A stretch of DNA of 64,000 nt from Marsupella aquatica. Lineage: Eukaryota; Plantae; Marchantiophyta. The position numbers were made by a program, and so were the translations under genes. Under the pieces are notes generated by a model that saw nothing but the letters and a program-made list of their open reading frames with translations, searched no databases and was not told the DNA's origin. The stretch is taken from contig OZ316896.1 in assembly GCA_973895155.1 (NCBI GenBank), forward strand, positions 22,277,722 to 22,341,721. The letters run 5' to 3'. Positions 10,496 through 38,735 of the stretch are shown here, in pieces (within the stretch, counting starts at the first letter, position 1; each line of letters opens with the position of its first letter).

Positions 10496-10635
10496 TAAAG
10501 TTAAGTGGAGCGCGCTTTTCTCAAGTCTTGTCCTTGCTCTTACTAGCCTCCTCTTTGTTAATCGCATCCCTAATGGCCATGATGGTAGCAAATCTAAGAG
10601 GGGCTCAATGCTGGAGTTAGGCAACGCCGGAGCAA

Positions 10636-14052: not shown

Positions 14053-14390
14053 ATCCTAACATCCTCTGTTGGATTGATGTGGACCACAGATGGCTTATAC
14101 TAAATTCCTTGTCCATGGACGAGCTCCATTGCATTGTGTTGAAATTGATCCTAACATCCTCTGTTGGATTGATGTGGACCACAGATGGCTTATACTAAAT
14201 TCCTTGTCCATGGACGAGCTCCATTGCATTGTGTTGAAATTGATCCTAACATCCTCTGTTGGATTGATGTGGACCACAGATGGCTTTTACTAAATTTCTT
14301 GTCCATGGACGAGCTCCTTTGCATTGTGTTGAAATTTCCTTGGACTTGGTCTCGCTTTCCTCTGTTGGATTGATGTGGACTATAGATGGC
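14053..14390. repeat. 95-bp tandem repeat, 3 copies plus a degenerate fourth
   Basis: atcctaacatcctctgttggattgatgtggacc at 14053, 14148 and 14243. Confidence 0.95.
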
Positions 14391-15192
14391 TGTTACTAAA
14401 CTCCTTTTCCATGGACGAACGCAGAAGCCTCACCAACTGCTCCACTCCGGGATGAAGGCAAGTAGCCAAATTCCGTCCCAGCAAACCAATTTAAGGACCC
14501 ATTCCAAGGATGTGGCATGGCACCAAGAAGTAGCTCGGCGAACATGGACATTTTGGGTTGGCCCATTCCAGGCCCAGAGGGGTCGAACATAATAGTAGGT
14601 GTGCGTCAATTAAGCTATCTATTGGTCTCCCAGATTCCTCTGTTGATCTCTACTTAATGTCACGAGGAGATCACTGTTGATTATGCTCAATTATACATTG
14701 GGATAGAATCTGCTCCCACACCAGCTGTGGCTCAATACGAGCAAATGCTCTTCCCTCTTCTCCAGTGCACTGGCTCCTTAGCTGACAACTCCAGGCCTTG
14801 GACCACAGTCGGTGATTTTATTGCACACAGACGGCTGCATTCCACGCAAATTGGTCAGCTCTACTCCTCTCTCAAACATGGTATCCAGTACCTGCAGGGA
14901 CCACATCCCAATCCCTCTGTTCCTCGCAGCGTTTAGGAGCACTTGGTGCTTAATTAGGTTCAATTCACCCAATCTTATGTGGCTCTGGCAAGTGGACGCG
15001 AAACTCAGTCTCCATGTGTTAACACGTTGTCTCAGTCCAATCCATTCATTCAAGGCACGCGGCCAATGACCACAAGGCTACGACACATTTGGAGTGATGG
15101 ATACAACCCTTCGCGCAAACTCAATTGGTCAAATCCTCTAAAGCAAACTGCGAATGAAGATCAAATTGAACCAACCTATTGGTATCGCTTTA

Positions 15193-16487: not shown

Positions 16488-19400
16488 GACGAAATTCTAG
16501 CCGGGTTTTCTCGATGCGATCAGCGAAGCTTCGAAGACGAGATATGGAGGCTACGATCTCTTCTCTTCAAACAACTATGATTCACTACTGTGAGGTAATT
16601 TGGATTCAGAAGGCTACGAGTGCTTCTCTTCAACTACTTCAATGATTGAACAACGTGAGGTAATTCGGATTTCAGGACTTCCACGACATTCAAGCCGGGT
16701 TTTCTCGACGCAATCAAACGGAGCTATGTGGAGGCTACGAGTACTTCTCTTCAACTACTTCACTGATTGAGCAACGTGAGCTAATTCGGATTCAGGAATC
16801 CCACGATATTCAAGCCGGGTTTTCTCGAAGCGATCAATGCAGCTTCGAAGGCAAAATTTCCAATGTGCGAAAATTCAGATTCGGGACTCGTACTGGAAGA
16901 GAAAGATATAGCTCGACAGCTGCTGATCACCGATTCCCGCATGTCCTCAAAAACGTGCCTCAAAATTAGCAATTGGACAGAATTGGACAGAAATTAGCAT
17001 TTTCCCGAAGCCATTGCCTGACGGTAATTGCATACCGTAAACACTTTCGTGCATTATATCCCACCATAAACACTTTCAGTGCATTATATCCCACCATGCC
17101 CTCTAACCAGGACATTATCCTATTCATATTTCAGTGCATTATATCCCACCATGTCCTCTAACTAGGTCATTATCCTATTCATAAAGTAGTGTGCTAATGC
17201 TAAGTGGCAACGCGGCAAGCACCCACAGGTTCAATGTATTGTTCATGGTGGTAATTGCGAGTTATTTGTTTGGTCGACCCCCAAAATGAAACTTGTTACT
17301 TGATCGACCCCTGAGGTCTATCAACGGTCCAGATTTGGTGACAGAGCCAAATCCCAGCTCCATGATTTAACGCTTCCATCAAGAATTGGAATGACGATCA
17401 TCATGTATGTTCATCAAGTCGTGCTGGCTTTGTGGTGTGTGTAAGTTTCATTGGACTTTGTCTCTCCTCTGTTGGATTGATGTGGACTACACATGACTTT
17501 TACTAAATTCCTTGTCCATGGACGAGCTCCTTTGCATTGTGTTGAAATTACTTTAGACTTGGTCTCGCTTTCCTCTGTTGGATTGATGTGGATTATAGTT
17601 TGCTGTTACTAAATTCCTTTTCCATGGACGAACGCAGAAGCCTCACCATGGTCCACTCCGGCTGAAGGCAAGTAGCTAAATTCCGTCTCAGCAAACCTAT
17701 TCAAGGACCCATTCGATGGATGTGGCATGTCACCAAGAAGTAACTCAGCGGACATCGACATATTGGGTTGGTCACCGTCTTGCAGGCCCAGAGAGTCAAA
17801 TATAATGATGAGTGTAAGTGTGTCCGCCAATTAAGTTTTCTAATTGGTCTCCCAGATTCCCTATGTTGATCTCTACTTCAATGGCACAAGGAGATCGCCG
17901 TTGGGTATGCCAAATTATACTGCGCCCAAACGAGCTCTGGCTCAATGAGAGAAAATACTCTTCTCCAGTGCACTGAGGAGAGCTCCGTAGCTGACAACTC
18001 CAGGGCTTGGACCACAGTCGGTGATTTTATAGCACACAGACGGCAGCAGCCCTTGCACCTGTCTTTGCACAAGCACTAAGGGCTGCATTCCAGGCAAATT
18101 GGTCAGCTCTGTTCCTCTATCAGTACCTGCAGGGCGTATATCCCAATCCCTTTCTTCCTTCTAGCGTTTAGGAGCACTTGGGGCTTAATTAGGTCCGATT
18201 CACCCAATCTTCTGTGGCTATGGCAAGTGGAACCGAAACTCAGTGTCCCTATGTTAACACGTTGTCTCAGTCCAATCCATTCATTCAAGGCACGCGGCCA
18301 ATGACCAGAAGGCTACGACACATTTGGCGTGATGGATACAGCCCGTAGCTCAAACTCAATTGGTGAAATCCTCTCAAGCAACGGCGAATGAAGTTCAAAC
18401 TGAACCAATCTATTGATATTGCTTTACCGAACGAATTTCGACCCTGAACCATGCTTGCTTTACATTGCAAGTGAACAGTGTCACATCGTACATTGAATGT
18501 ATGACTGAACGCTGGTCAACAATACATGAGTTTAGTGCTCCCAGCGCACGCAATCTATTGCTGGGACAGAATACTACTGGTACCTAGAAAGTTAAGGCAG
18601 TCTCGGCAAAACTGTTGGTTCACTCATAGGCTTATACACAACCACTTTTTTTTTTTAGATTTATATCTTATTAAAAATGGACCGTATACATATATGGTCT
18701 GCTAGGCAATTGTTTTTGCCAGGGGGGTAGCTGGGGTATACACGATGCTGTCAATAAGCTCAGTAAAATATGTTTTATCAGTGTTTGACAACCTTAAATT
18801 TATACTAAGGCCGGGCCACTCATCCCATTCTGGGATATTTAGTTCCCCTACAGAGTCTCCCCGCATACCCGAGTAGTCTGTATATGGTCGACTTCTCCAT
18901 GGACTCCTCTTTTAAGGTAGGGGGTTTGATTACTTTGGATTTTCACTCCCCCTACGAGTTGAAATGAATGGGGTGGACCTGCAATTACCGTACTCCAAAG
19001 ATCCTAATATTTTTTCTGTTACGAGTTTATCTTTGGATCATCTTCTTGCATCACCATGAAGAAATACTTCATGTTTAAATGGAATTTTCATTAACACCTG
19101 ATTTGCATCCAAATGAAATCTAAATTACCGTGACAATGTATCTTCATGAGTTCATGAAGAGGATTGGTATATAATTGTTTAGTCATTTGATGTCATCAGT
19201 TGTTTTGTGCAGGATGTTTTTGAGAATGTAGTTGTGGAGGAGGCATCTTCCTCAAGATATGGCGATGCAATGGCCCTAGCGGATCACATTATCGTTTGCA
19301 AGCCAATGTGCAAAATCTCTCACCAGTTTTACAGCTTGACGAGATTTCTTCTTGAATGTTTGGACAGACTTGAGTGAGCACTTCTCGCAACATGTCATTT

Positions 19401-21381
19401 TTTCGTTCCCTTAGCAAACTTCCTTTGATTGCAGACTCAGACTCCTCAGCTCAAGGAGGACTCTCCCTTCCAACATTTGTTTCGTGTAAGTCTGCACTCA
19501 TACCTTCCGGAGACCACGGCACGGTCAGAAGGTGACCCAAGACCGATACTTCAGTCCCCTGCCGTTTGGACGAGGAGATTGAAAACTCTGGGTCTTCATA
19601 GTGAAGTTTGGATTGCTCGACCGACTGGTAGATTCAGCGAGCTCATACATCTGAAACTAAATCTTTTCAGTAAAAAAGTAAACTACGCACAACATGTTGA
19701 CAGATCTCCCCAAGCGTCCATGGAAGACTGATGGAGACTGATGTACAAGTGTGCATAGCAGTGTTTTGTCTTGGTACATCATGAGAGTAGTACAGAAGAC
19801 CGCCCAGTCTCATCCCATGCTTATTCTCGTGTACACCAAGCAAAACCGGGAATCACAATTTCGCCGGATGAAATTTTGAGGGACTCAAAAGAGAGAATAT
19901 GAAATGCTGATGCCAAATGGAACTCACACTGCTAAAAATGTCAGAGATTGCTACGTGACCTGTGTATTTCAGACCGCTCTGATATGGTTTGAAAAATGAG
20001 CGCCACCTTTTTGCCAGTCCAGATTATCGAATGTTCAATTTGACAAATTCAAGTTCAAATTCAAGCACAAATTTGACAATCTGGGTTTCTTAATCTAGAA
20101 AAGTCGAGCTTGTCCAGCCCGAGCGCACATGGAGCTCCATGACAACGTACCTGTCAACTGTTTGAAATTGAGGCTCATGGCTAGAGATTTCGCCCGAGTT
20201 TCTGGACATGCTTTTCCCGAAGTATCACCGTTGTGGTGAGCCAATTCAAATTGTGCATCTCAGCTCCGTAATTGAACCCCATCAAGATTTGGAATGACCA
20301 TCATCATGAATGTTCATCAAGTTACGCTCTCTTTGTATTGTATTGAAATTTATTTGGAGTTTGTCTCTCCTCTGTTGGATTGATGTGGACTAGAGATGAC
20401 TTTTACTAAATTCCTTGGCGATGGACGAGGTCCTTGGCATTGTATTCCAATTTCATTAGACTTGGTCTCGCTTTCCTCTGTTGGATTGATTTGGACTATA
20501 GATGGCTCTTACTGAATTCCTTTTCCATTGACGAACGCAGAAGCCTCACCAACTGATCCACTCCGGCTGAAGGCAAGTAGCCAAATTCCGACCCAGCAAA
20601 CCAATTCAAGGACCCATTCGAACGAAGGATGTGGCATGTCGCCAAGAAGTAACTCAGCGGACATAAACATATTGGGTTGGTCACCATCTATGACCTATTG
20701 CAAGCCCAGAGAATCAGATATAATGGTAAGTAAAGTGTTCCCGTCAATGAAGTTTTCTAATTGGTCTCCCAGATTCCCTACGTTGACCTCTACTTTAATG
20801 GCACAACGAGATCACCGTTAGGTATGCTAAATTATGCATTGGGATTGAATCCCACCTTTCGCATCTGCGCCCACACGAGCTCTGGCTCAATGAGAGCAAA
20901 TACTCGTCTCCAGTGCACTGAGGAGAGCTCCGCAGCTGACAACAGTCGGTGATTTTATAGCACACATACGGCAGCAGCCCTTGCAACTGTCTTTGCACAA
21001 GCAATAAGGGCTGCATTGCAGGCAAATTGGTCAGCTCTACTCCTCTGTCAGTACCTGCAAGGCGCACATCCCAATCCCTCTCTTCCTTCTAGCGTTTAGG
21101 AGCACTTGGGGCTCAATGAGGTCCAATTCACCCAATCTTCTGTGGCTATGGCAAGTGGAAGCGAAACTCAGTCTCCATACGCTAACACGTTGTCTCATTC
21201 CAATCCAATCATTCAAGGCACGCGGCCAATGACCAGAAGGCTACGACACATTTGGCGTGCCCTTAGCTCAAACTCAATTGGTGAAATCCTCTCAAGCAAC
21301 TTCGAATGAAGTTCAAACTGAATCAATCTATTGATATTGCTTTATCAAACGAATTTCCACTCCTTTGTGATTTCCTTCAGG

Positions 21382-22635
21382 TTAGTGCAATTGCGCAGCC
21401 TGGTCACTCTGCCTTTCTCCCTCTCCCTTGCATTCTCTCTGCTCCTCAAACAGCCACCAGCCTGCCACAGGTTGCACGGTATCATCCTTCCCGTCATGAT
21501 CTCTAGCTCTCACGCCACTGCTGGTAATCTCCATCCCAACGAGGCCAGCTACCATTACGGTGTTGAACTTAGCTCCGTTGTCGTCCAGTTTGACATTCAC
21601 CTCGGCATAAGCAGGCGGTATTGTCTTCGTGTCGACTCGATGATAGCCCACCCCATCCATTGTCAAACTCCCAAGCTCACTACGGTCCCAGTTTTTCTTC
21701 TCCCCCACTGTTTGATCCGAGTACAGCGGCTTTCCTTCTTTGTCGAAAAAGCAGAACGCCGTGATCCAGCCGGACAGGTACCTCGGCCCACTCCCTCCAC
21801 CAGAACGGTGCGCGATTTTCTGCCAGAAATCCTTAATTTCTTCTGAATCTGGTTCCTCGAACGACCGCACGAATCCAGCCAGGACAGGCCTGAGGAGGGA
21901 ATGCCACCGCGCCGTCTGTTCACCATACGAAGGAAGCTTCTCGGCTCTGCGAACAAGTTTCTCCCAGTCAGTCTTTTCGCCCAGGAGAGTCACAGCCGGT
22001 AGGCCGCATACCAATTCAAACTCATAGCTGAAGTAAGCCTTCAGCGTGGCCATCATAACGACCGAGGAGACAATCACATCATTGACGGTCGTCGTGCTGA
22101 AATTCGGGATGATCCACTCTCGCAGCTCCGGATCCTTGACCTTCCGCTGGATTTCGTGCCCCATCTGCTCCGCCATGGCGCCGAAATTAACATCATAGCG
22201 AGAACCCACGGCTGAGACGACCAGATGTTCCTGCCCTTCGTGTTCGACGAAGAGGTGTCGAAGCGTTTCCGCGTTCGCATTCACGTAGAGGTTAAACTGA
22301 GTGAGGATGGCGATCCAGACATCGTCGGGCCGGAGGACGAGGTGATGGTGGTAGCTGTACGCCCCCACGGCAGTGTTCACGAGGCCGTTCATGTCCGGGC
22401 AGACAGCAGACTTCGAGAGGTCAGTAGCAGCGAAGCGTTCAGCCCATTTAGAGACGCTTGATGATGAGTTTGAGGTGCCTGCCGCGAACGAGCTCTGGAA
22501 GATCTCTCTGCATTTCTCGGAGACGGGTGTGCAGGCCCGTTCGAGCAGATCCTTTGCGTCCCTAGCTGCTCTCTTGTACCCCGTGCTGCTCACGCTAGAG
22601 AGCGGCTTCGTCGACGGATGCACTGTAATCGTCAT
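21382..22635 (-). CDS. Intronless DUF4419-domain protein, copy C (417 aa from ATG 22635)
   Basis: Open frame containing NGLVNTAVGAYSYHHHLVLRPDDVWIAILTQF..YVNANAETLRHLFVEHEGQ, PNFSTTT, YFSYEFELVCGLPAVTLLGEKTDW, FWQKIAH..GGGSGPRYLSGWITAFCFF. These motifs are recognised as DUF4419 (PF14388). Confidence 0.85.
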   Translation of the reverse strand: MTITVHPSTKPLSSVSSTGYKRAARDAKDLLERACTPVSEKCREIFQSSFAAGTSNSSSSVSKWAERFAATDLSKSAVCPDMNGLVNTAVGAYSYHHHLVLRPDDVWIAILTQFNLYVNANAETLRHLFVEHEGQEHLVVSAVGSRYDVNFGAMAEQMGHEIQRKVKDPELREWIIPNFSTTTVNDVIVSSVVMMATLKAYFSYEFELVCGLPAVTLLGEKTDWEKLVRRAEKLPSYGEQTARWHSLLRPVLAGFVRSFEEPDSEEIKDFWQKIAHRSGGGSGPRYLSGWITAFCFFDKEGKPLYSDQTVGEKKNWDRSELGSLTMDGVGYHRVDTKTIPPAYAEVNVKLDDNGAKFNTVMVAGLVGMEITSSGVRARDHDGKDDTVQPVAGWWLFEEQRECKGEGERQSDQAAQLH

Positions 22636-24959
22636 GACGAAATTCAAGCCGGGTTTTCTCGATGCAATCAGCGAAGCTTCGAAGGCGAGATCTGAAGGCT
22701 GCGAGTGCTTCTCTTCAACTACGACAATTCACCCCAATGTAAGGTAATTCGGATTCAGGACTCCCACGAAATTCAACCGGGTTTACTCGACGCGATCAAC
22801 GGATCTTCGAAGGCGAGTGCCTCTCTTCAACTACTACAATGATTGACCAACGTGAGCTAATTCGGATTCAGGACTCCCACGACATTCAAGCAGGGTTTCT
22901 CGAAGCTATCAATGGAGCTGTCGAAGGCAAAATTCGGAGGCCACGAGAGCTTCTTTAAAAAAACTACGATGGTTGGTCCAATGTGCGAAAATTTCAGATT
23001 CGGGACTCCTACTGATGAGTTGCAGGATGTCAATTCACTGGAAGAGAAAGATATAGTTCGACAGCTGCTGATCACCGATTCCCGCATGTCCTCAAAAACG
23101 TGCCTCAAAATTAGCAATTGGACAGAATTGGACAGAAATTAGCATTTTCCCGAAGCAATTGCCTGGGTAATTACGGACCCCACTAGAGGTCCCTTCCAAA
23201 ATTCCTGGCACCACAGCGTGCCACGTCAACAACAAACAGGAACGAATTGGTCTCCACAATGAAATTATGCCCACATTCGTGTTTGCGACAAGATTTTGGT
23301 AAAACTGGGGACGCCATGCCGTAAAAATTCATGTAAACTTGTTTTACAATTAATCGTATTATTTACCTTTAGATAACAAATTATTGAAGTTGAGATAGAC
23401 AATAACCGTTTTTTCTACCCCTAAATAACGGAATGCACAACATTAAGTAATAACAATAAATAACAATAACCATTAAGTAATAAAAAAAATTAAATGTGTA
23501 ATCGAAATTAAGTAAGCACTTGTCACTAGAAACAGTTAAGTAAGTTTCTAGTGACAGTAGTGGATTAACGTCCACTACAATCCATCCCGCCCGCAATCCA
23601 AACTGTAACGAGTGCTCCTCCGCTCCACAACCTCTGCACGAATTCTCGTTGTTGATTTTGATGGTGATGGTGCGGTGAATGTGTGCATACGCAATGTTGA
23701 GAGAAACGAGAAGGTGAGAAAGAAGCTGCCCGATCGAAGATTCGATAACAAAGAAACCAGAAGTTCGATAACAAAGAAACCAGAAGAGGGATTATTCATA
23801 AGGACCGGGGTAGAGAAGAGCGGAAAACAAGCGACCTGAGCAGAAGAAAAAGGCAAAAGCAGATCGATCGAGACAAAAAGAAAAGTGAAACTGAACCCCG
23901 ATCTAAGGCCGAAAACTCACAAGCAAAAGAGAGAATTGAAGCAGCATAAGCATCGGGAGGCACTGGCGAAATAGAATTGACAAGGAGATTTGAAACGCAC
24001 AGAAAGAAACATCGAGAAACGAAATTGAAAAGAAAGAACAAAATCAAACAGACTGAAGAAGAACCGATAAGGACTTGAGCATAGAACCGAGGGCACTCGA
24101 TCAAGAAAGCTGAGAGAATCACTGAGAAAAGGCATGACTAACTAAGGCAAAAATTGAAGAACGAGAAATAGAAGCGCCGGCCCCGGAAGCAGCCCAAGAT
24201 TTTCAATTGGTGAGAGCCGATTTCCCAACTACGAACCTCTGTTATCTGATCGACCTCCAAACAGTACCTACAATACTGCTTTGAATTCATCACTGCTAGT
24301 TCTCAACTGCGCTGATCGAGAAGGAACACAGTTACACTGGTAGGAGTTCTAGGGGAAGATCGAGATGTGGGGAAGATCGAGATGTGGGCAAATTATTCGA
24401 CAGCAGATAGCACGACAATCACCCCATATCTATCATTTGGAGAGAGAACTCGAGGCACGCACAACGACCCACTGGATATACTAACAATGTAGACCTGTTT
24501 GTCTTCATTTGGTGAATTATCCATAGTTTTCCACCTTATCCTAATTGTCTACATTTGCCAAGGGACTAGATGTCTGTACAGATAAGAACTGTGCAAGATT
24601 ACAAATAATTGAGTAGCTAAGAAAATCCCTATAGAAGGAAGAACTTGGGAAGAGCGTACTGATTCCATTCGATAATGGAAATTCGGCGACAAGAAGCATC
24701 TTCTGTCTAATTGTCAGTTCAATGGACTTATTGGATGCAAGTGCGGTTTGAAAATGACTTGTGCTATCTCTTTCGGGTTTATCCAGGTTAATCGATACTG
24801 CGAAGAGGCTTGCATAAGAGATGAATTTTGAAAGTGGAGAATTGTAGCAAACAACAATGTCGTGAAGACAAACTACGAGGACTTAAGCTGGAAGCAAAAT
24901 GATGTCGAAGGTAAACTCCTGCTGCTGCGTGTTCTTCATAAGTACAGAGTAGGAACGAA

Positions 24960-25969
24960 AAGACAACACTAATCTAAGGACTTGAGTCATCGATATTGCC
25001 ACTCTTTGCGTACATGTGAACCAGTGCATTGGCCACACGCAATTCCGACTCCAGTCCGGCTTTGCTAGCATGGCCATGGACCTCCTTCAGCCAAACCAAA
25101 GCCCCAACACTTGCAGATGAATTCAGAATGCACAGATAAGTGATTGCATTTGGTTCTTAACATTCCCGTCTCATTTGGCGAAACAGTCGATATGCTTCCT
25201 GACCGCAACCACGTTCTGCATACGCGCCAATCATGGTATTAAACGTGATTACATTGGTCTTCAATTTATCAAAACTCAATCGGGCATCATCAATGCTACC
25301 ACTTTTCGCGTACATGTGAACAAGAGCATTGCCCACACGCAAATCCGACTCCAGTCCTGCTTTGCTAGCATGGCCATGAACCGCCTTCACCCACGCCAAA
25401 GCCCCTGCACTTGCAGATGCATTCAGAATGTTCGCATAAGTGATTGCATTGGGCTCCAAGCCTTCCCTCCTCATGTCGAGAAATAGTCGATATGCTTCCA
25501 AACCAAGACCACTTGCTGCGTATGCTCCAATCATTATGTTCCAGGTAATTAGATCTCGTCTTTTCATTCTATCAAACAATAGTCGGGCATCATCTATATT
25601 ACCACTTGCGGCATAGGCATCAATCATCACACTCCAGGTGATGAAATTTTGATGAGTCAAGTTGTCAAAAGCTCGCCTTGCCTCCGTGATGCACCCACAA
25701 TTTGCATACATCTGAAGGAGGGCAGTCCCTACACGCACATCTGATTCAAGACCGGCATGTCGAATACACACATGAACTTCTTTTCCCCATTCTGGAGCTA
25801 ATGGACTAGCACATGCCTTCAGGATGCACATATATTTGATGTCATTAGGCGGTCTACCTTCTTTGCGCATCAGTTTGAAAATTTGCAGTGTTGATTCAGC
25901 GTGATCACTCTTAGCATATCCTGCAATCATCATATTCCAAGTGACAGACAAAAAGAAAATGATCACCAC
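24960..25969 (-). pseudogene. PLS-class pentatricopeptide repeat (PPR) gene fragment
   Basis: P-L-S repeats: VTWNMMIAGYAK..PNDIKYMCILKACAS..GKEVH..SDVRVGTALLQMYANCG..DLITWNIMIGAYA..PNAITYANIL..SDLRVGNALVHMYAKSG. Degenerate repeats continue to about 24960. No N-terminus or E/DYW domain. Confidence 0.92.
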
Positions 25970-26224
25970 AAGCTCTCCGTTTCATCTGCGCAGCTCCCCT
26001 GAGAAAGAAACAGCCACTCTTCCATTTTTGAAATTGAAGGACAGGAAAAGATATGCATCTGGCACGAGTTAATTTTTAGCAATTTGGGTAGTCGATGATT
26101 GAAACAAGGCTGACAATCCCAGGCTCTGCTCTTCTCCCCCGAATCTGTCTATGGATATGTCTATGGAGCAGAAGAAGGTCGGGAGTGGGGGACTGAGGGA
26201 GTGGGGACTGAAGGAGTGATGAGT

Positions 26225-26470
26225 ATTGAGACTTGCTTGCAATGCGCTACCCGCTTGTATGGCTCGACGGTCACGGAGGGCAATATCATCAGCGTGTCTG
26301 GTGTTGTGCCCGATGAGCTGATGACCGGCCTACTCTCCGCTTGCCGGAGCGGCCAATTCAATCGGGCCCAGGCTGTGGTGACCAATGTTATTGCGGAGGG
26401 GCACCTTGTGTCGCAGATTTTGAGCCAGTTGTTCGGTTTGGTTATTAAAGCGCCAAAAATCACCGATGGA
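26225..26470 (+). pseudogene. Internal fragment of a replication factor C small subunit (human RFC4/yeast Rfc2-like)
   Basis: IETCLQCATRLYGSTVTEGNIISVSGVVPDELMTGLLSACRSGQFNRAQAVVTNVIAEGHLVSQILSQLF matches the RFC lid/collar region. It lacks the AAA+ core and the C-terminus. Confidence 0.8.
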
Positions 26471-29400
26471 GGTGAAAGACAGTCAGTCAAGCCATTAGGT
26501 TCACATGATTTCCAAAATCCTGTGAGGAAGGATTGTGTCCTCCATGGTTCATGCGATTGTTGCCCTGTCAAATTCAGTCTGTTCGGTATCTCTGAAATAG
26601 TTGTGAGGAATCGCAACTCTTCAAAAAGATACCTTGTACTTTTGGATACAGTGAAATAGTCGTGAACTCTAAACCTTTTGGGTTCTTTCGAATTAGGTCG
26701 AAAGTAAAAAAGTTTTGGAAGAGGGTTCTTATAATATCCGAATCAAGGGAGGTTCGGTTTGCAAACATTCTTTCCTTGGCGGTCCCGTAAGTTGTCGGGC
26801 TCCTAACTACGTTAATCAGTTCGTTACTATGCTGACAGTCTTCAAGAACCGTAAAGTCAGGAAGATACATCGCATTATTTAGGATGCAAGTATTCTCTTG
26901 AAAAGAAATCCCAATGCTGCTTCGAATGTGCAGGATAGTCTCCATTGTTTAATATGAAGGCCAAGGAAACAATTTTGCTAGCGCCTAGGTCCAACTCAGA
27001 ATATCTTGGATTGATAAAGTCAAATGCTTGAAATCTGTCAATTATTACGGATGGAGGGGCCAAAGTGAGCCTCGTTATTCTGTAGGGTGCTGAAACGTAT
27101 CTTACTGTTGCCATCACCGTAGTTTGATCCATCATGGTTTGCATACTCTCGACTTGTGTAATACTGTTCCTGCATCCTGGAGTGAGGGTTGTCCAAGTGC
27201 TGGAGAAGGGTCTTCGTTCAGCTGGTAGACATCCTGTGGCCGAATGAAATTGTCGGTAGTAAACAAACTGGAACCCTTGTGATGGGACATTTCGAATCGG
27301 CAATATAGAGGCAGATGCCAGAAAATACCTCATTGTCTCCCGAGTTCTATGTGAGAAAAGCGACGCCATCACAGAACCTGAATGTCTTCCTGTCAGTGTT
27401 CAGTAGAGGGAATAAGAAGTGTAATTCTATGAACTTCTACGGTAATTAGTCAAATGAGCTCCTCATGTTTGAGCTGTCTCATAACTGATGTAAGATTTTC
27501 CACGTAATTGAGTCTTGGTGTCCCAATCTCCAGCAATAAAAGACAGCACGCTTGGTCCTTCGTAAGATTGTCTCAATTGAAACTCAATTGAAACTCCATC
27601 CTTCCAGTGACCCTGTGAACAGTTCTTGGATCCGCTTCAGACAGGGAAACATGTTTAAGACACCATATTACAGTGCCGGGACCAAAGCAAAGAATTGGTG
27701 GTCGTTATCCCATTTTGATACATATCATCAATGTAATGTATGCTTCTCATTTGCAAATGTCCTCACGACATCCATCCCCTGCAAGTGAGCTAAAGGCATA
27801 GCTGGCATCCTTGCTCATGATAACTTCAATCCTCGGGCAGATCTTGACCTGACTAAACTGAGAAATTGATCATTAGTCACCAGATCAAGTAGTAACCAGA
27901 TTACAGGGTAGTTTCACTTGTGAAAGTTTTGGCCAGTCAGGGAAAGCATCTCGGCGGACCTTCATTTAAGGATTGACACTGGTGAACGTGTTCTCGAGAG
28001 CAAAATGCCCCACAAGCTGAAACAAGGTCAGCAGAATTATCCATAGTGGGAATACGACGTCGAAGATTTAAACACAGGAATTTCATGATTTCGAATCTGG
28101 GTACAGTACATCAGGTGCTAATTCTTTCGCTAGATTAGATTTGATTATTGCACTCCATTCAAAAATTCCGCTGTGAAGTTATACAACGCAGGAAACAGTG
28201 AAATAGCATCCTTGTACCTTGTACACACTAACCAAAAAGAAATTTCAATGCGTTGTGCAATGAATCACGTGCCCGCCTATTGGTGAGAAGGTCAGACTTG
28301 AGATGTTCTGACGAATAGTAATCCAGTCAAATCTCTATGATCTTCAAAGTAGGTAGGCATTCTGTCGGGACAAAAGTGAAAATTAGAAGATGATCTCGGA
28401 ACAAAAAAGGGCCATTTACAAAGAAAATGGAAAACAAAGTTTATACAACACTGCGAAAGAGCAAATAATGCCAAACAGGGAGACAGGATCCCAGAGGCAC
28501 GAGATCCACTAAAGGGGAGAAAACATGGAAAAAGTTCAGTAAGAACAAAAACTAAAGTGTAAAAAAGCGCCGAGTGAGGCACATATTAAGAATTCAGGGA
28601 TACTGGGGAATCAGACGGATACTGGTGTCCCTTCTTGCTTGTCATAACTAAATTAGAGAGACACCTTAAATAAAGTGAGTCATGCAACCTATACTTAGAG
28701 CCTATAACTAGACTGAAAATTATAATTAGGTTGACACCTGAAATAAACTTAAGTGAGTCACAATTTTATGTGAGATGTTTTTTATAGGCTAAGCTATCTT
28801 ACTAATAATTTGCAAAGCTACTTAAGGCCTATTTTCTAGAGTTGGCAACTCCCAATAAAGACAAAACTGATAATGAGTCTTTAATAATTACACAACTTAA
28901 AAAATGAAGATAAACCAAAAAAACAGTATGGGGGAGGGTGGACAAAGAACTAGATGGACAAAGATGAACTCAAATTAAAGCATACTTAGAATTGTTTCAA
29001 GGAATCTTGGGTAAGAGGCCTAGTTAGTGTAACTTACTAGAGATGGACACTTTATCTAATGGAACGTTTGTTTGGTACTCACACAATTTTTGCAGAAAGG
29101 GCATGGTGTGTCGGCCGATTTACTTAATGGTGTTCGGGAAGTTGGACATGAGTTTTCAAGTTACCTAGAGAAGAGAAGCTCCAAATAATTTAGACAGCGC
29201 TTCTACATACAGGTTTGATGTCTCCTGACTTTCAAAAAAACAGAATGGGGGAGGGTGAACAAAGAAGTTCTAGATGGGCAAAGATGAACCCAAATTAAAG
29301 CATACTTAGAATTGTTTCTGTGCAAGCCTTTTCTTTCTTCATATCTCTACTTTTGGTTATTTAATTTGGCATTTACTCTGTTGCGGTCCTTTAAGACGGT

Positions 29401-29639
29401 TTATTGTGCTTCGAATCCGGACCAACTCCGAATCATAGCCAGGTTTGAATTGCTTTTTGTCATTACAATTTTGAATTGCAACAAAGATCCTCACTTTGTA
29501 AAGAACATGAAGAAAATAATTTTAATATATACATATATATATACAAATATATCTTTATATTGACTGAGTATTAAACCTATATAATTCATTAGATTAGATT
29601 ACAAGTTTCTATAGTTGCCTGTACCAATTCACAAACTAA

Positions 29640-29790
29640 GGCGGTAGGCCGCTTGCTTACAATAGCTTCCAAAGATCTCTGAGGCATTACCCAAATTTTC
29701 TTCCGGTTGCCAATTATTCTCGGCCTGGTCATAACTAGCCCACTTCACCAAATACTCTAAGATTTGCCTTCCCAACTTGCATTTGTAACT
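29640..29790 (-). pseudogene. Chromodomain fragment (chromovirus integrase-type)
   Basis: KCKLGRQILEYLVKWASYDQAENNWQPEENLGNASEIF is a chromodomain signature (YLVKW..Y....W.P..NL). Confidence 0.75.
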
Positions 29791-30089
29791 CCTCAACGTC
29801 CTCCACCTCAAACTCCTCAACGTCCTCCACCAGCATAGCGTACAAACGCAAGACTTGATCCCGGTTGGGGTCATCGTCTTGGACAAATTTCTTGATTCAG
29901 CTAACATGGTAGCTTTTGCCCACTCCCATTTACTTGCGGGTTTACTTGGGTGTCTCCAACACCATCTAAACCGTATTATCTTTGTGGGCCTATCGTGTGA
30001 ATGATGCGATAGGGTTTCGCATACCAAGGAGAACTATACCTTGATTGGTAACTATACCTTAATGTAAGTATTGCTCTAACCGAAATACC

Positions 30090-30445
30090 TGGGAGAACTA
30101 TGCCTTGACTTGGTACAAGTCTTGGAAGAAGTTGCAAGAGGACTCTTCCTTGCCGTTAACTTGGAAAACCTAGTTGAGGGTCTTCGTGCTCATGTCACCA
30201 CTAAGTACCTACAGCGGCACGCTTAGAGATGTGTAACGTAAATGAGCTTTAGGGGTGATACCCAAAACTGGGAGAACTATGCCTTGACTTGGTACAAGTC
30301 TTGGAAGAAGTCGCAAGAGGACTCCTCCTTGCCGTGAACTTGGGAAAATCTAGTTGAGGGTCTTCGTGCTCATGTCACCACTAAGTACCTAGAGCTGCAC
30401 GGTTAGAGATGTGTAGCGTAAATGAGCTTTAGGGGTGATATCCAA
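30090..30445. repeat. 180-bp tandem duplication upstream of RepHel; a separate 27-bp x3 repeat lies at 30835-30906
   Basis: gggagaactatgccttgacttggtacaagtcttggaagaag occurs at about 30090 and 30270. Confidence 0.9.
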
Positions 30446-31071
30446 ATGATCATCACTTATTATCAAAACCATTTGGTGTGTATCCCGACGGGGCAAGAGA
30501 CACTACATACACAACTGCACAACTTTATAGTGAATCACGTGTGGCGCCATGGGTCATCATTGAAGTAAGGATTGTTCCACCAAAGGTGGCGAGCCGAGCG
30601 AAGATGGAGGGCAAAAGGGCAATAATGTAAGTATTGCTCTGACCGAACCCTTAGTAGTTGATGAGGTCCCTGTAGGGGATATGCCTGTCGGAGAGAAGGT
30701 GTTGTTGCGAGAGAAATTACGTAAGGTTATGACTATAAATCCTGACAAGCCAATTTTTGTGAATGTCACAAGTTCTAACGATAATTTGGGTGTTGCGTTG
30801 GTGGATACAAGCGCGACCGCCTGCTTCATGAGTGGCATGACCTTCGAGTAGTGTTTATGGCATGACCTTTGAGTAGTGTTTATGGCATGACTTTCGAGTA
30901 GTGTTTGGCGCTCTGCTAACTTGAGTTGGAGCCAAGCAACCAACTCTTCTTGGTAACTACGAGATCGTGATAAGCAAGACTCATTTCTGAAATTTCATTG
31001 ATCGAATTTTGGATGGACCCTAGCTAAGAAAACTGACGAGTTCATAATCCTTTGCATAGGGATCCCCAAAA

Positions 31072-34000
31072 ATGTCACGGCGTACAATGTCCGAGAAGAG
31101 ACATGCCGCACGAAGGCGTGCAATGAACACCTGTGCCGAGTCACTAAGTCCGTTATGTCAAGGATGGGCCTCAGCCCCATTGTATCTCCAAGAATGGAGA
31201 GAAGTTTGCCAAAAGACAATCCAAGGCATGAAGGTGTGCGGGATGTGCGGACTAGTTCGATACGGAAACACTCCGAGGATCGACAAGACATTCACCACCG
31301 TACCAAAGGTGAACATGACGCCGTACGGCATATGCAACGCATTTGTCAACCAGTACATTGAGAACCAAGATGGAACAATCAACGTGTGCATGACTTGCGT
31401 GCGAAACCCCGCCCGTATCCAGATAAACTCCTTCATATCTCCGCAATATGCGATCGACATCCTAGCCGCGAAGCCATTGTACATGCAATTGCTCTCGCTA
31501 ATCGACTGTCGACTAGGCATCATACAAAAGTACAATGGCTTCCACTCTGGCTTCTACAAAAAGGAAAGCCTCCTTGACAACCCGCTCATATCCTGGAATC
31601 TCGACACGCTAGAGTGCAATAATCGAGAGGAGATCATGCGACAGATATACAAAGTCATGGAACTCAATTTGACGACCAACCAACTTTTCAAAAGATACGT
31701 TTCATTGGTCGAACTACCAGACCCGTCACTGGGACTGTGCATCCTAAGTTCCGACGGAGTAGAGAACATCATCAAAGACAAGAGGGCAAAGGGAATAACC
31801 ACGAGATCCATGAACTTTGACCCATTCGACCCCGACCTGCACATCCTCCAAGATGTGCATTACCGGATCCCGACTTCACACAAGCGCAAGTACCAGGTCT
31901 TTCGTTCTGGCACCGTGTACGACCGCAAAAGAATGTGCTTCGAAGAGAGCGTCAACACCGATGCAGAAGGACTGTCGAACGATCCACAATTGACATTGGA
32001 AAATGCAATGTTCCCGTTCTTGTTCGTCCACTCGAGGGGTTTCCATCGAGGACAACTCAGCTTGATCGACTACATGAAACGGAGGACACAACAGTTGTTC
32101 AGCATATTCACTTTGTACAAGCCGTACATGCTTATCATGTACCAATTGCGACAGGCCAGCCAAGTAGCAAGCATGAGCAGGATGATAGTAATCGACAAGG
32201 AATACATGCAGATCAAGGAGAGGTGCCCCCACTTTAGCGAGAAGGAAATATACAAAATGCTGATAAAAAAGACAATCATGCAGGCCGTTCCTGGGAGTCC
32301 GGCGTGGCACGGAAGACACCTCGACGACCTCAAGTGCATGGTGAGAAAATGGGGACTGCCCCACTTCTTTCTCACGCTCACTTGCGATGAGCTCAGCGAC
32401 ACCCGTTGGCCTGAGATCGCCGACCTCGAGAACCTTGTGAAGAGGATGAATCCGACCTTCTCATGGAAAGATTGTCTTGTCGAATGCGCCGTGCTCTTCC
32501 ACGAATGAATCCAACGTTTTTTCAAGGATTATATTTTGTCAAAACGCGCCATAATCAGAAATGTGATCCACTACGTCATCAGGTACGAGTTGCAGGGCCG
32601 CGGATCACTCCACGCCCACACGGTGCTATGGGTCAAGGATTGCGACGTCGATCGAGTCATGAACGAAATTTCCGCATTCATCCGTGGCAGATTCGACTCG
32701 ACATCCGTCAGATTCGAAGAGCCGAATGGACTCGAAGAAAAGACCCTGTATCGCAACGTGGTGACGAAACAACTTCACTACTGCAAGGAGGGCTTGTGCT
32801 TGCAAAGGCACTCCCAAACCGGCCTCAAGTACTGCAAGTTGGGTTTCCCCCAAGAAACTTACCTCGACAAAGATGCAGCCATCGACCCCGCCACGGGGAA
32901 ATGGAGGTACCACAGGCCAAGCGACCACCATCGAAATGTCGAGCCATACCATCCGCTCGTGTTGCTGTTGTGGGGCGCGCACATGAACCTGCAGCGTGTC
33001 ACAAACGCGGCATGGTCATTCTATTTGCTCAAGTACGCGATCAAATGCGAGCCCCTAGGATCACTCCAGCTCAATGCAAACGATGTGCGCACTCTAGGAC
33101 TCGAGGACCTGTCTGAAGTCCAACTCAAGCTCGTCAGCGGAGCCGTCCTGTCTCGGAGCGTGTGCGCCACGGAGGCGGCCTTGACGTGCCTCAAAATCAG
33201 CATCATCCATCGCTCGGAGACAGTAATGTTCATGGACTCGTCGCCTCCGGAACTGAGGTCCGCCATCTACCGTAAGTCCTCGGGGATATATTTGCATCCC
33301 ACCAGACTCTACGCACAGAGGCCCGAGGACATGTTTGCAATGTCCTTCTACGACTACTTCACCAACCATGAGGTCCTCACCAATAAGAAAAGCACCACCA
33401 AAGACTACGTCGGCAGGGATTTGCAAGGCAATTTTGTGTATCGGACGGATCGGCTCGTGCGATTTTCAGAGTATCATCCAGTATACAAGATGAACGGCTT
33501 CTTCTACAACTACCTCCTGAAGGTCGTGAGATTCCGTGCAGAAGGCGAGATTCTCCTCAGGCCCATAAGCGAGACGTGGAGCTACTTGCACGAGTGCATA
33601 TACCGCAAGTTGATAACCAGCGTCGACAACGTGCACAAGTTGGTGCTTGAGTATTGTGCATCGCACCTCTACTCCACCCACCACACATCCCACCTGCTCC
33701 AGGAGCTGAACGAAAAGCTTCCCCACCAAATTTTCAACGACGCGGCCACATTCCAAGTGGTCCCCGCCGTCGCCGTAGAGAAACTGATCAGCGCGGTGCT
33801 CAACGACAAAACTCTCCCGACTGTCAACTTGACTCCGGACCAAATCAGAGTGTTTGAGGCACTCAAGGATGTCAAGAGCGGTCTGTTCATGATTGATGGA
33901 AATCCAGGATCCGGCAAGACTTTCTTCATCTCTTTCATGAACAAATACTGGACATATAAAGGGAGGAAGGTGAAGATGTGTGCCACCACGGGCGCGGCTG

Positions 34001-35196
34001 CCATAAACCTTAACGCCAACGCGGTGACAATGCATTCCTTGTTCAGCATTCCAATACACTGAGAGCTCAGGCCTCTGCACATCACCAGTCCCCAATACCA
34101 CATCTTGAGGAACAATGACGTGTTCGTCATAGACGAGGCGAGCATGCTGACACCCAAACTGTTGCGTTGCGTCTCCACAAGACTACACGAGACACTCCAA
34201 GACGAGGACCGCTCGTCCGACCCGTTCCAAAATAAGACGGTCATCCTGGTCGGAGACATGTGCCAATTGCCTCCGGTTTGCACCCACCACACCAATGACA
34301 TATGCAAGTCGTGCCACCTCTCGTCGTCGCCATATTTTGAGACCATGCGGAAATTTCACCTCAGCACTGTGCTCAGACAGAGCACAGACCCGGAGTTCAT
34401 GGAGTTCCTTAACAACATCCGCACGGGCCTCCCTACCCAAGAATCGATCGATGAGTGCTTGGGACGATGTTACGTGTCCAAACCAGAAGCCCATGATTTC
34501 ATCGACGCCTCGACAACCATGATATGCACACATAGAGAAATAGTCAACAACTACAACGAACGGGCATTACAGAGATATTTTCCACGCCAAGAGATCGTGC
34601 CCGTCCCAATACTCACCAATGCCCCTTCAGATGAATCCATCCGGCCTTGGATACAAGATCCCTCCTTCCACACACTGACGAACATTGCAATCGGATGCAA
34701 AGTGATTCTCACACACAACATCGACCTCTCCAAGCAGGCCGTGAACGGCAACGGAGGAATCGTGGAGAAAATCACTATAGAAGCCGAAGGCAAAATGTTG
34801 ATTTTTGTGAGAATGTCTTCCAACCACTGCCTCGTAAAGATCAACCGCACGGTTCACGAGAACAAGTTCATCTCGGGACAGCAAATCCATCGGAAATCCA
34901 CTTTCCCTCTCATGCTCGGATACGCCATAACAGGTCACAAGAGCCAAGGATGCACACTAGCGGGCAAGGTCGTGCTAGAAATAAAGAGTGCATTCACACC
35001 GGGACTGGTGTACGTTATGTTGAGTAGGGTCACAAATAGAGCATCCATGCGCATTGTTGGAGATCTTACGCCGCCGGACTTCAAAGTGTTCCACTTACCA
35101 ATTCGTCGTGTTCAACAAGCAGATGTCGACCACCAAAGGCAACAAGGCAGCGAAGGCATCACAACAACAACGAGAAACGATGACAGGCACAAATAG
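31072..35196 (+). pseudogene. RepHel transposase (HUH Y2 Rep + Pif1-family SF1B helicase), HLE2-type; one 1375-codon frame with two in-frame TGA codons
   Basis: ORFs 31072-32508, 32536-34062 and 34105-35196 share one frame. Motifs: N-terminal CxxC...CxxC; LENAMFPFLF; PGSPAW..DLKCMVRKWGLPHFFLTLT..WPEI; YELQGRGSLHAHTVLW (HUH); YLLKYAIK (Y2); GNPGSGKT; IDEASML; GDMCQLPPV; LRQSTD; FPLMLGYAITGHKSQGCTL; YVMLSRV. Confidence 0.95.
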
Positions 35197-35992
35197 CAAT
35201 ACGACAAGCGCTACTCCTACAACAGTTCAGGTAAACAGTGTCCACTTCATACTTCACATTGTTGATGCAAGCGATATATAATGAAATGATGATACGAAAG
35301 TTGCACGATTCATTAACATTGACGGGCAGTATTGTTCTAACACATTGTTCATGTCTTTCCTGTGCAGCCCATGACAGCCGTGGAGATGGCAAGGATGATC
35401 ATGAGAGAGCTGCCGTCAGATGACTTCCGGACTGACAAGGAAGTAACAGCTAAACAAATTGCTTTCGGCAACGGTCTCAGAATCGAGACAACTGAGATGG
35501 TGAACGGGATCAAGAGGAGAGATCTGTCGAAGATGATCGAGGAGAGGAAAGTGTTCAAGGCCGACTTCTACGATCATTACGGAGATAAACCGGCGACTGG
35601 TAAGCACAAAGATAAAACCCCCAATAAAAAATGACTTAAACCATCTCATGCACACATTAAGCACTAACTCCGTGTTGAAAACAAATGCAGGAGTCATGAA
35701 GGAGATTCTTAGGTACATGGCAGTTCCGTTCGAGGAAGACCAGCTCACTTACAAGGACGGGATGCGTGAGTACATCCAGGTCACAAAGGGAGCTCGTCTG
35801 GAGCAACTGACCAGATTGAGGCATGATTTCAAGATGCCACTTGATATGTTGGTAGGGCTGACACATCATCAATCCCAGTCCCTGATCGACAGGCTGAGGA
35901 GGAGCAATGACGAGGGGCTGCTATCTGACGTCCCTGCCCAAACAGCAACGGAACAACCCACCACATCCAAGCGGAAATTCAACGCGATGTGA
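35123..35992 (+). CDS. Predicted 3-exon accessory gene of the HLE2 element (exons 35123-35230, 35368-35599, 35691-35992; 213 aa), function unknown
   Basis: Intron 1 is CAG|gtaaac...ttctaac...tgtgcag|CCC (phase 0). Intron 2 is G|gtaagc...cactaac...atgcag|GA (phase 1). Splicing gives one uninterrupted frame ending KRKFNAM. Confidence 0.75.
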
Positions 35993-37252
35993 CAGTTGTT
36001 TCCATGATGTAGTACAAGTTTCATTTTTCAGAACAATGTGGTGTCTCATGCAAAAACAAATGACGAGTCCCAATAAAGATACCCATTGTGGGAAACATAT
36101 TTATCTATATCAATAACTGTCTACTTTTTAACACATTTTTTATCTGTATCAATAACTATCCAATTTTCAATCTCAATCGAATAAAAACAGGTGGGGGTCC
36201 ACGAACTAATTGGATACCATTAAGCCGTGTACTATGCTAAGTGGCAAGCGCCCACAGGTTCAATTTATTGTTCATGGTGGTAATTGCATATGAAAAAGCC
36301 ACTGTACACTAAGGAGCTGTCGCTCGTGCTTTTGTGGTACCATTTTCCCGAAGCAATTGCATATCAAAAAGCAGTGTACTATGCTAAGTGGCAAGTGCCC
36401 AGAGGTTGAATTTATTGCATACCAGAAAGCGGTGTACTGCGCTAAGTGGCAAGAGCCCACAGGTTGAATGTGCTTCTCATGGTCATAATTGCATATCAAA
36501 AAGCACGCTGAGGTCTTTTGAGGTTTGTGGTTAAATTTCTTGTTTGATTTCCTTTTCTAGGACCCCTGCTTCTCTCCTGGTTGGATCCTCTCTTGACTTT
36601 TTAGCTTCTATTTAGCAATTCTATTAACCTCTATTTAGCAATTCTACCATTTCTGCTTGGATTTTGACTCTGCATCGAGTTTGTTGCTAGGTACTCAAGA
36701 CTTCGTGTGAAAGTGGTTTCTGATGTGGGGGAGTAAAACTCTCTCCTATCGTTTAGGGCTAGTTTCATTGGACCCTGACTACTACTCAGAGTAAACTAAA
36801 TAAAAGGGTGTTGTCAGACCAGGTGTTGCTCCTTACATTCATAGCCAAACCCTACTTTGGAGATGATCTTACAAGAACCACCTAATATCAGATGACTGGT
36901 CCTTCCAAGATTTTGCTTTAGATTTCATCAAAGAACCATTTCATCAGAGAAAACCTCTCATAGCAAGGGAATTGTCCATTTTGACACCACACTAAAGAGG
37001 TCACTTGTACAAGAGATCTCTTAATCCTACATGGACAGGAGTGGGTCTCCCAAAAGGCTTATGTGGACAGCGGAGTTCTGGCCAAAGTTTGGGCCACCTG
37101 TGGAGGTGGTACCTTGAAAGCACCTCTTGGTCTTTTCTCATTCTATCACTAGAGTGGACTGCTTGACCACCTTTTGGGGTCAGGACAAAGTACATCCATA
37201 TGGACTTGTGACATGGTAAAACACAAGTGAGTGCTCGTTGTTGGTTGGTCAT

Positions 37253-38735
37253 TACGGACCCCCATGAGAGGTCTCTTGCAAATTCCCTGCCACGAGGTTG
37301 CGCCACATCACCACAACCAGCCACAAACAGGAATGATCCTTCTTTTAACAATAACAAATGTGCACATTCCTGTTTGTGGCAAAAGCAACGTAATTTTTGG
37401 GACGCCATGCCGTAAATATTAAACGTAAAAAAAACAAAATACAAAGGGAGATATGTCATTTAGTAAAATAAAGTTACCATTTTGATGTTTGTCAAAGATA
37501 TATCAGTGTTTTATATCAAAATGCTTATATTTTTTAACTGTTTGCAAGTTTGAAAAAACCAACCAATAGAAATGTACATAGTTAAAACCCCTTCGGCTTC
37601 ACATTGTAAAATTAAATAATCAATCTCCTTAGTACTTGATAAAATTTGTCAATGTTTGATTCATTGGAAAACTCAAGATCAAGATTTAGAAACTCGTGAC
37701 CTCTTTAGTAGTGTCTTGATAAAATCTCTCAATGTCACACTCATTGGAAAACTAAAGTAAATTCAAAACTCATCATCTCCTTAGTACTTGACAAAATCTA
37801 TCAATGTTAGGTTCATTGGAAAGCTAGAGAAATTTAGATACTCAAGATCTCTCTAATTCTTGACGAATAATCTCAATGTCACACATTAGAAAACCAAAGA
37901 GATTAAAAACCTCATGATCTCTTTAGTATCGTGACAAAATCTGACATGAAATTTGTCAATGTCGGACTCAATGTTGGAAAGCTAAGAGAATTCATGGACT
38001 CATGATCAAAATTTCTTATACTCACACTCATTGGAAAGGCAAAAAAATTCAAAAACTCATTTGGAACTTGACAAAATTTGTCAATCTGAGTCTCATTGGA
38101 AACCCTTTCTTGATTAAGAGATATCACAATCTCATCACCGTCACAAACTTAGCCGTTGAAATTGATTTCTTTGATTACATCGTCATCCCTTGTCCACAAT
38201 GCTTGCTTCCCGGCTTGAATTGTTTGCATTCCTCTAGTCTTTAACTGAAGCTCACTTTGAACATAGGTTGATGCCAAATACAGCCTCTATGTCAAAGAAA
38301 CAATTGTTGGTCTCCCCCTCACACCATAGCTTTCTTAAATAAAAAAAACTACAAATCCTTCATGTGAAGCAATGGCTTGCTTGTTTTGTCTGTTCTTGCC
38401 ATCGAATCGGCAAGCGCTCTTTTGCGAATAGCTAAGTGTTGTCCTCCAGTCTGTCTTGTGGCGGTAATGCTCAATGTAACTCACAAATGACCAATCAGGA
38501 ATGATAGAAACATGATTTTTCCAATGTGTAAGCAAAAATCGTCAAAAAACTCAATTCCTCCATATTTGCCCTTACGTTGATAAATCTCCTCTATGTTTTG
38601 AGCGTTTTATTTTGTACGAGCACACACCAAGACCATCGGGAGACTCAAAACCTTCGATTACCGCCTTGTTGAGAATTGATTTCACTTTATCAAACACACA
38701 TTCCTTGGATGAACATAGGGGGTCCACGGATTAAT
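37253..38735 (+). mobile_element. Non-autonomous relative of the HLE2 element (about 1.48 kb)
   Basis: Left end TACGGACCCCCATGAGAGGTC, with about 150 bp similar to 23172-23325 (including gggacgccatgccgtaaa). Right end AGGGGGTCCACGGATTAAT. It is flanked by T on both sides. Confidence 0.75.
37620..38100. repeat. Degenerate ~70-bp tandem repeat (about 6-7 copies) inside the non-autonomous element
   Basis: Recurring atctc.ttagtacttgacaaaat..tcaatgt...tcattggaaa. Confidence 0.8.

What the first reader, a model, noticed from the sequence alone, without database searches (positions are those of the whole stretch)
23172..36210. 13-kb cargo-carrying Helentron/Helitron2-like element with an empty site visible in the same window
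Seen: the third DUF4419 repeat unit stops at ...gcctgggtaat (23171) and resumes 13 kb later at tggataccattaagccgtgtactatgctaagtggc (36211), while the sister units (about 6695 and 17020) are continuous there. The insert begins TACGGACCCCAC with a 5' hairpin (GGACC-N8-GGTCC) and ends GTGGGGGTCC-ACGAACTAAT. These are short asymmetric inverted repeats at a T|T junction, with no TC...CTRR ends. Established: asymmetric sub-terminal inverted repeats, T|T targets and an RGS-x-H-x-H Rep motif typify HLE2 (Helentron/Helitron2), which are much less described in land plants than canonical Helitrons. Inference: the whole 13 kb moved as one unit, comprising captured gene fragments, RepHel and an accessory gene. 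The usual 3' stem-loop after the sub-terminal repeat is absent, so the end structure may be a new variant.
Basis: partly seen in the sequence, partly recalled or inferred. Interest (0 to 1): 0.85.

Follow-up and report, generated by a model that had tools for sequence, protein, structure and literature searches.

The report
Hairpin-less Helitron2-like plant transposon family
A broken 13-kb copy of a multi-copy plant jumping gene sits inside a repeated host unit and shares its ends with a 1.5-kb non-coding sibling; it is likely a rolling-circle transposon of the Helitron2 type that lacks the usual end hairpin and would stop copying by pairing its two ends, and most of the host-gene scraps inside it appear to be peculiar to this copy.

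Summary
The insert and its ends (23172-36210) are confirmed. A sister repeat unit is continuous at the site. A 1.5-kb element (37253-38735) has matching ends and a third right end lies at 54875. Public contigs show dozens of unrelated flanks at exactly these boundaries. The TAATT seen on both sides is not a target duplication. RepHel (31072-35196, two stops) meets both published Helentron/HLE2 motif-2 diagnostics, but DUF6570 and the AP endonuclease are missing. Tree placement was not achieved. No conserved 3' hairpin exists; a related family keeps one before a near-identical last 7 nt. Joined ends are predicted to form a 7-bp stem with the junction in its loop. The 'cargo unit' is weakly supported: 26.2-28.3 kb lies near single-copy depth, RepHel at tens of times that. 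Land-plant HLE2 and hairpin-less fungal HLE2 ends are already in print. The scan noted Helitron2-type elements in other genomes before, not this family. Verdict: new variant of a known kind, moderate interest.

The parts
23172..36210 (+). Whole element (decayed RepHel-bearing copy), boundary ambiguous by +/-1 base because TT stands at both junctions
   Evidence: many unlike flanks before 23171 and behind 36211
23172..23192 (+). 5' terminus: T start, 7-bp asymmetric inverted repeat (23175-23181), 5-bp hairpin with 8-nt loop
   Evidence: hairpin is in the minimum-energy fold but not better than shuffles, 50 of 200
23193..24550 (+). 5' non-coding region; first ~160 nt 68% like the small sibling; remainder at a few times single-copy depth
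24977..25981 (-). PPR gene fragment (broken frame)
   Evidence: Pfam PPR_2 E 1.9e-44
26230..26452 (+). Fragment of a replication factor C small subunit (C-terminal domain); left limit judged by eye
   Evidence: Pfam Rep_fac_C E 1e-05
26166..28309 (.). Internal stretch near single-copy depth, no further Pfam match; diverged paralogous contigs at 27683-27974
29400..30990 (-). High-copy repeat debris with a chromodomain (29674-29772) and short tandem duplications; likely retrotransposon-derived
   Evidence: Pfam Chromo E 3.7e-08; depth
31072..35196 (+). RepHel: C4 zinc finger, HUH Rep, Pif1 helicase; one frame, two in-frame stops
   Evidence: 48-52% identical to P0001 in all three pieces
35180..35992 (+). 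Predicted three-exon accessory gene (35180-35230, 35368-35599, 35691-35992; about 194 aa), splice model by eye, no family found
   Evidence: no hit; multi-copy depth like RepHel
36194..36210 (+). 3' terminus: inverted repeat GGGGTCC, then 10 nt ending CTAAT, no hairpin after the repeat
37253..38735 (+). Non-autonomous 1.5-kb sibling with the same end design (8-bp repeat), internal tandem repeats, very high depth
54858..54875 (-). Third right end, identical over 18 nt to that of the large element; no left end found in the window
16990..17040 (+). Paralogous empty site in the sister repeat unit

Best explanation
This is a decayed copy of a multi-copy RepHel-encoding element with short asymmetric inverted repeats, T|T junctions and no conserved 3' hairpin; it likely moved by rolling-circle transposition like Helitron2/HLE2 and would end each round by pairing its 3' repeat with its 5' repeat. 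Shown: ends, empty site, absence of target duplication, sibling elements, RepHel anatomy. By analogy with Helraiser (PMC4778049): RepHel nicks at the 5' end, the helicase peels off one strand, and a second nick closes a circle that inserts at TT. Inferred here: without a local terminator hairpin, the 3' repeat pairs with the enzyme-held 5' repeat, displacing the 5' hairpin as Bao and Jurka proposed, so that the junction lies in a 13-nt loop on a 7-8-bp GC stem. The family consists of RepHel plus the downstream gene and hundreds of short derivatives. The 26-28 kb host scraps are likely specific to this copy, captured by an immediate ancestor or inserted later.
For: Empty sister site. Loose ends with low agreement (0.40-0.48): 47 contigs before 23171 in X2; 43 (X2) and 74 (X4) before 37252; 8 (X2), 16 (X3) and 15 (X4) behind 36211. 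Depth falls about 100-fold within 20 nt of the right end in 4 of 4 runs. Both Helentron diagnostics of PMC4067079 are met; 70 of 77 homologues with a readable motif 2 have S where canonical Helitrons have L, and none has L. By eye against the published alignment the zinc-finger layout, LT-x-x-E, Q-x-H and W-x-A-x-M-x-x-Q agree with Helitron2 rows. Joined ends fold with the 5' repeat paired across the junction at P 0.96-1.0 in both elements, and the repeat lengthens on both sides in the sibling, 8 against 7 bp. A related family ends in hairpin plus AACTAGT|T downstream of RepHel in 11 distinct loci, which fixes the orientation and shows what is missing here.
Against: No tree with HLE1 and HLE2 references. 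DUF6570 not found in the window or listed for 27 homologues. The Rep profile scores Helraiser (HLE1, 97.7 bits) as well as the best DUF6570-bearing protein found (96 bits), and the HMN motif is HLE1-like. The junction stem follows from any inverted repeat; it beats shuffles only in the tight window (2 and 1 of 300) and weakens with more sequence (10-51 of 300). Each of the three 3' ends can form a different weak stem overlapping the repeat, which could be the terminator. No circle was observed. Depth from contigs is not a copy number.
Confidence: 0.68

Rival explanations
1. The RepHel belongs to a separate deep lineage of green algae and seed-free plants, neither HLE1 nor typical HLE2, and the HLE2-like ends are ancestral or convergent.
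For: Compact clade: 87 clusters at E<=1e-30, named members are green algae; score drop from 200 to 128 bits to the first OTU-bearing protein; no DUF6570; profile alignment to DUF6570-bearing proteins starts only at residue ~313; HELIANO lists 202 'unclassified' elements in a lycophyte.
Against: Motif diagnostics are HLE2-type; HLE2 is known to be diverse, with four subgroups; the word-based search sampled few outside proteins.
Confidence: 0.25
2. The whole 13 kb, cargo included, is an amplified composite family that transposed repeatedly as one unit.
For: One pair of ends encloses everything and the target is an intact empty site; 23.5-24.5 kb lies at several times single-copy depth; 16-18-kb HLE2 copies exist in Sphagnum.
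Against: Near-identical contigs across 26490-28337 have depth 20-24 against 17.5 for the unique flank in X2, while RepHel bins reach 206-563. One X1 contig (27153-27615) is higher, 239 against 64.
Confidence: 0.1
3. The ends should be read as 5'-TT...CTRR-3' in N|TT, like proto-Helentron, with termination by sequence (CTRR) and the repeats only a binding site.
For: CTAA precedes TT in 2 of 3 right ends and CTAG in most ends of the related family; both left junctions in the window read A|TT; genome data cannot fix the nick.
Against: The sibling ends TTAA; at least 47 contigs lack A at that left position; repeats co-vary between the two elements.
Confidence: 0.15
4. The ends belong to a cut-and-paste transposon with a 5-bp TAATT duplication and RepHel is an independent nested insertion.
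For: TAATT stands on both sides of this copy.
Against: Sibling has TCATT left and TAATT right; TAATT is constant at right ends while left flanks vary; no terminal repeats at the very ends; no second set of ends around RepHel; multi-copy depth runs unbroken from RepHel to the right end.
Confidence: 0.02

Closest known systems
Helitron2 (Bao and Jurka 2013, PMC3627910; passages, supplement file 14 parts 1-3 of 9, file 13 part 1 of 4; Fig. 5C not held), incl. Helitron-1_CRe and Helitron-5_SMo
   Same: RepHel without endonuclease, 5' T, short asymmetric repeats, 5' hairpin built from the 5' repeat, no target duplication, RGS motif
   Different: Repeat 7-8 bp (published 8-15); 3' repeat 10-11 nt from the end (published 20-30) with no hairpin after it; RepHel lacks a detectable DUF6570
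Land-plant HLE2, e.g. HelenSM92 of Sphagnum (Li et al. 2024, PMC11417382; part 1 of 9, passages, sections 23-24, supplement term searches)
   Same: Long (13 against 16-18 kb) plant element, TT targets, extra coding cargo, short derivatives
   Different: No GIY-YIG found; repeats below that program's >11-nt limit; the one liverwort genome it sampled had HLE1 only
FoHeli3-5 / 'HLE2-reverse' of Fusarium (PMC5148889, passages; PMC11417382 section 24)
   Same: Asymmetric repeats, 5' hairpin, no 3' hairpin; TNAT|T target of FoHeli1/2 matches both left flanks in the window
   Different: There the hairpin lies upstream of the left repeat and the layout is read as reversed; here the 5' repeat is itself the hairpin arm and a relative shows the orientation is normal
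Helentron / DINE-1 (Thomas et al. 2014, PMC4067079, passages)
   Same: Motif-2 diagnostics, TT target, abundant non-autonomous partners
   Different: No AP endonuclease, OTU or RPA found; no 3' palindrome
Canonical Helitron (HLE1), Helraiser (PMC4778049, passages; PDB 7lcc)
   Same: HUH plus Pif1 enzyme; CTRR near the 3' end; compact spacing after motif 2
   Different: No 5' TC, no RGLPH, no 3' hairpin, has asymmetric repeats

Membership tests
Helitron-like elements (all) | RepHel with HUH Rep and Pif1 helicase | tested here: met
Helitron-like elements (all) | No target-site duplication | tested here: met
   left and right flanks could not be paired per copy outside the window
HLE2 (Helitron2/Helentron) | Motif-2 diagnostics F/Y-x-x-R and RGS | tested here: met
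   YVIR-YELQGRGSLHAH against PMC4067079
HLE2 (Helitron2/Helentron) | Insertion between T and T, 5' T | tested here: met
   (nick position ambiguous by one base)
Helitron2 | Asymmetric repeats of 8-15 bp, 5' one 0-2 bp from the end | tested here: inconclusive
   7 and 8 bp perfect, 9-10 with a bulge; starts 3 nt in
Helitron2 | 5' hairpin using the 5' repeat | tested here: inconclusive
   in the minimum-energy fold of the large element, not of the sibling; neither beats shuffles
Helitron2 | 3' hairpin downstream of the 3' repeat, repeat 20-30 bp from the end | tested here: not met
   10-11 nt to the end, no stem there in 3 of 3 ends
HLE2 | DUF6570 marker domain | tested here: not met
   absent; not among the 25 families listed for 27 homologues; marker is specific but not stated to be universal
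HLE2 | RepHel clusters with HLE2 in a tree | tested here: inconclusive
   no HLE1 reference set could be stored and the tree run was lost; profile scores tie
Helentron | C-terminal AP endonuclease | tested here: not met
HLE1 | 5' TC, 3' hairpin plus CTRR, RGLPH motif | tested here: not met
   5' TA, no hairpin, RGSLH; only CTAA resembles
TIR (DDE) transposons | Terminal inverted repeats and target duplication | tested here: not met
Helitron-like elements (all) | Circular intermediate | not testable with these tools
   no end-to-end joint among the rows shown (217 rows not shown); contigs only

The most novel reading that the evidence does not exclude
A green-lineage RepHel clade outside both HLE1 and DUF6570-bearing HLE2 includes a plant family whose terminator exists only when the two ends meet: the repeats close a GC stem with the nick site in a 13-nt loop, an origin-like structure recalling single-stranded DNA virus origins (recalled, no call). 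A close relative that keeps the ordinary 3' hairpin gives a natural before/after pair for testing end-pairing termination.
Probability: 0.25. Interest if true: 0.7.

Novelty: new variant of a known kind. Interest (0 to 1): 0.45.

Why it matters
The role of HLE2 asymmetric repeats is a 2013 hypothesis (PMC3627910) for which my searches found no test. A successful family that has the repeats but no 3' hairpin, beside a relative that has the hairpin, would make it testable. Repeats of 7-8 bp fall under the >11-nt limit of the current HLE2 finder, so such families are probably under-annotated in seed-free plants. The cargo shows host-gene scraps inside an element but not their spread.

Tried and rejected
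No whole genome held, so no genome-wide pairing of ends. Viral contigs: 0 of 125 candidate stretches encode a relative. Window ends not found in 80 metagenome loci; the 5' end of the related family was not identified in them. Accessory gene: no match in Pfam, longer proteins (0 of 97 candidates), loci or stored proteins; only exon 3 was searched in the large database; the Atlas gave no answer for it. No RNA holder listed. 57 further short frames of 23.2-31.1 kb gave no match at a Pfam cut-off (57 of 74 frames given, 8 others, 9 not scanned). No nested-element boundaries found in the cargo; the best inverted pair (23187/31004, 18 nt, 83%) is judged chance. TNAT as a strict target: fits both window flanks, but the largest contig classes lack A at the -2 position. 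Reverse-orientation reading rejected by the relative. Tree not obtained. In one search the sibling's 3' end was taken one base short, so its loop shows 12 rather than 13 nt; the stem is unaffected. Paper search on Helentron in seed-free plants returned only unrelated papers; Replitron paper PMC10288648 seen as listing only and not used.
Full report
Observation. The window holds three related host units; removing 23172-36210 from the third gives a sequence that aligns without a break to the unit near 17020 and to that near 6695. TAATT flanks the insert on both sides, which on its own could be a target duplication. The window holds two more ends of the same kind: a complete 1.5-kb element at 37253-38735, whose left flank is TCAT, and a right end on the minus strand at 54875. 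Three right ends at <=2 mismatches compare with 1 match in 30 simulated windows.

Ends from other copies. No genome is held, so I laid contigs of four runs (two studies, two organism labels). Loose ends with low agreement pile up before 23171 (47 contigs, X2), before 37252 (43 in X2, 74 in X4) and behind 36211 (8, 16, 15 in X2, X3, X4); the tables show only the best-supported rows. Depth drops about 100-fold just past the right end in 4 of 4 runs. So the TAAT at the right belongs to the element, TT is constant at both junctions, and there is no duplication. Genome data cannot say on which side of a T the nick falls.

Coding content. One frame from 31072 to 35196 encodes a C4 zinc finger, HUH Rep and Pif1 helicase with two stops; most other copies read a sense codon at the first stop in X3 and X4. 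Motif 2 meets both Helentron diagnostics of PMC4067079. The nearest protein, P0001, is about half identical throughout; named relatives are green algal. Read by eye against the alignment of PMC3627910, most motifs side with Helitron2 and one with HLE1. Against this, DUF6570 is not detected, the profile alignment to six DUF6570-bearing proteins omits the first 300 residues, and the Rep profile scores Helraiser and the best DUF6570-bearing hit alike. The tree run was lost. A predicted three-exon gene follows RepHel and has no recognised relative.

Cargo. Upstream lie a PPR fragment, a replication factor C fragment and a chromodomain in high-copy debris. Contig depth is no copy number, but near-identical contigs over 26490-28337 have depth 20-24 in X2 against 17.5 for the unique flank, RepHel bins 206-563, and the short sibling about 8,000; the other runs agree in order, with one X1 contig at about four times the flank. 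The family core is therefore ends, RepHel and accessory gene. Whether the scraps rode in with this copy or arrived later is open.

End structure. After the 3' repeat only 10-11 nt remain and no stem forms there; each of the three ends has a different weak stem overlapping the repeat; 10, 103 and 193 of 200 shuffles fold as well. Of 80 metagenome loci (52 distinct sites), 16 loci at 11 sites carry a shared 3' end downstream of a related RepHel: a 5-6-bp hairpin followed by AACTAGT|T. The last seven bases match the window's AACTAAT|T, so the orientation is the usual one and the hairpin is missing here; whether the window's repeat derives from one arm of it cannot be decided. When the two ends are joined, the repeats are predicted to pair across the junction at P 0.96-1.0, displacing the 5' hairpin; this follows from the repeats themselves and is significant only in a tight window.

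Mechanism. Helraiser nicks its 5' end, needs a 3' hairpin to stop, and forms circles; hairpin loss cuts transposition to about 9% and raises read-through (PMC4778049). This family has sharp 3' ends in dozens of contigs without such a hairpin, so another stop signal is likely. Pairing of the repeats, proposed in PMC3627910, is the best candidate; sequence recognition of the last bases is the rival.

Comparison. HLE2 in land plants is published, as are hairpin-less fungal ends with a different layout. Because the 3' hairpin and DUF6570 tests are not met, I file it as HLE2-like and not as a Helitron2 member. The host is a land plant by its PPR and retroelement content; earlier unchecked notes on this genome call it a liverwort, and the one liverwort in the HELIANO table had HLE1 only. 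Figures and bioRxiv supplements could not be seen, and Repbase was not searchable, so a prior description of this clade is not excluded (searches).

Verdict. Real, well-bounded, a new variant of a known kind; interest 0.45.

Noticed in passing
window 5834-23171 and 36211-36500: Three diverged host units with DUF4419 frames at 15546-16496 and 21385-22728 (minus strand); the first unit appears to lack the frame. Short repeats follow each unit.
   Followed up: partly
window 747-4254: Broken Copia-type retrotransposon (gag-pre-integrase, SH3, RVT_2 matches).
   Followed up: no
window 60440-63331: Broken long frame without Pfam match, with a zinc-finger-like start and acidic motifs that recall a transposase (recalled, not tested).
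   Followed up: no
window 42100-44088: 662-aa open frame with hydrophobic stretches and no Pfam match.
   Followed up: no
window 50410-51657: 415-aa frame with a CxC...H...H motif recalling the C-terminus of a non-LTR retrotransposon (recalled); no Pfam match.
   Followed up: no
window 54858-55233 (minus): Orphan right end of the family with a 111-nt internal duplication and no left end in the window; interior unlike the other two elements.
   Followed up: partly
L046:12012-15720: hAT transposase fragment inserted into the related RepHel element; L027 carries two 3' ends 611 nt apart.
   Followed up: no
L025:11073-11300; L033:8799: Tandem hairpins whose arm is complementary to the related family's 3' subterminal region; possible 5' ends of that family.
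   Followed up: no
X3 row at 36178: Two contigs carry a second right end directly behind a partial one, suggesting tandem 3' ends in the window's family.
   Followed up: no
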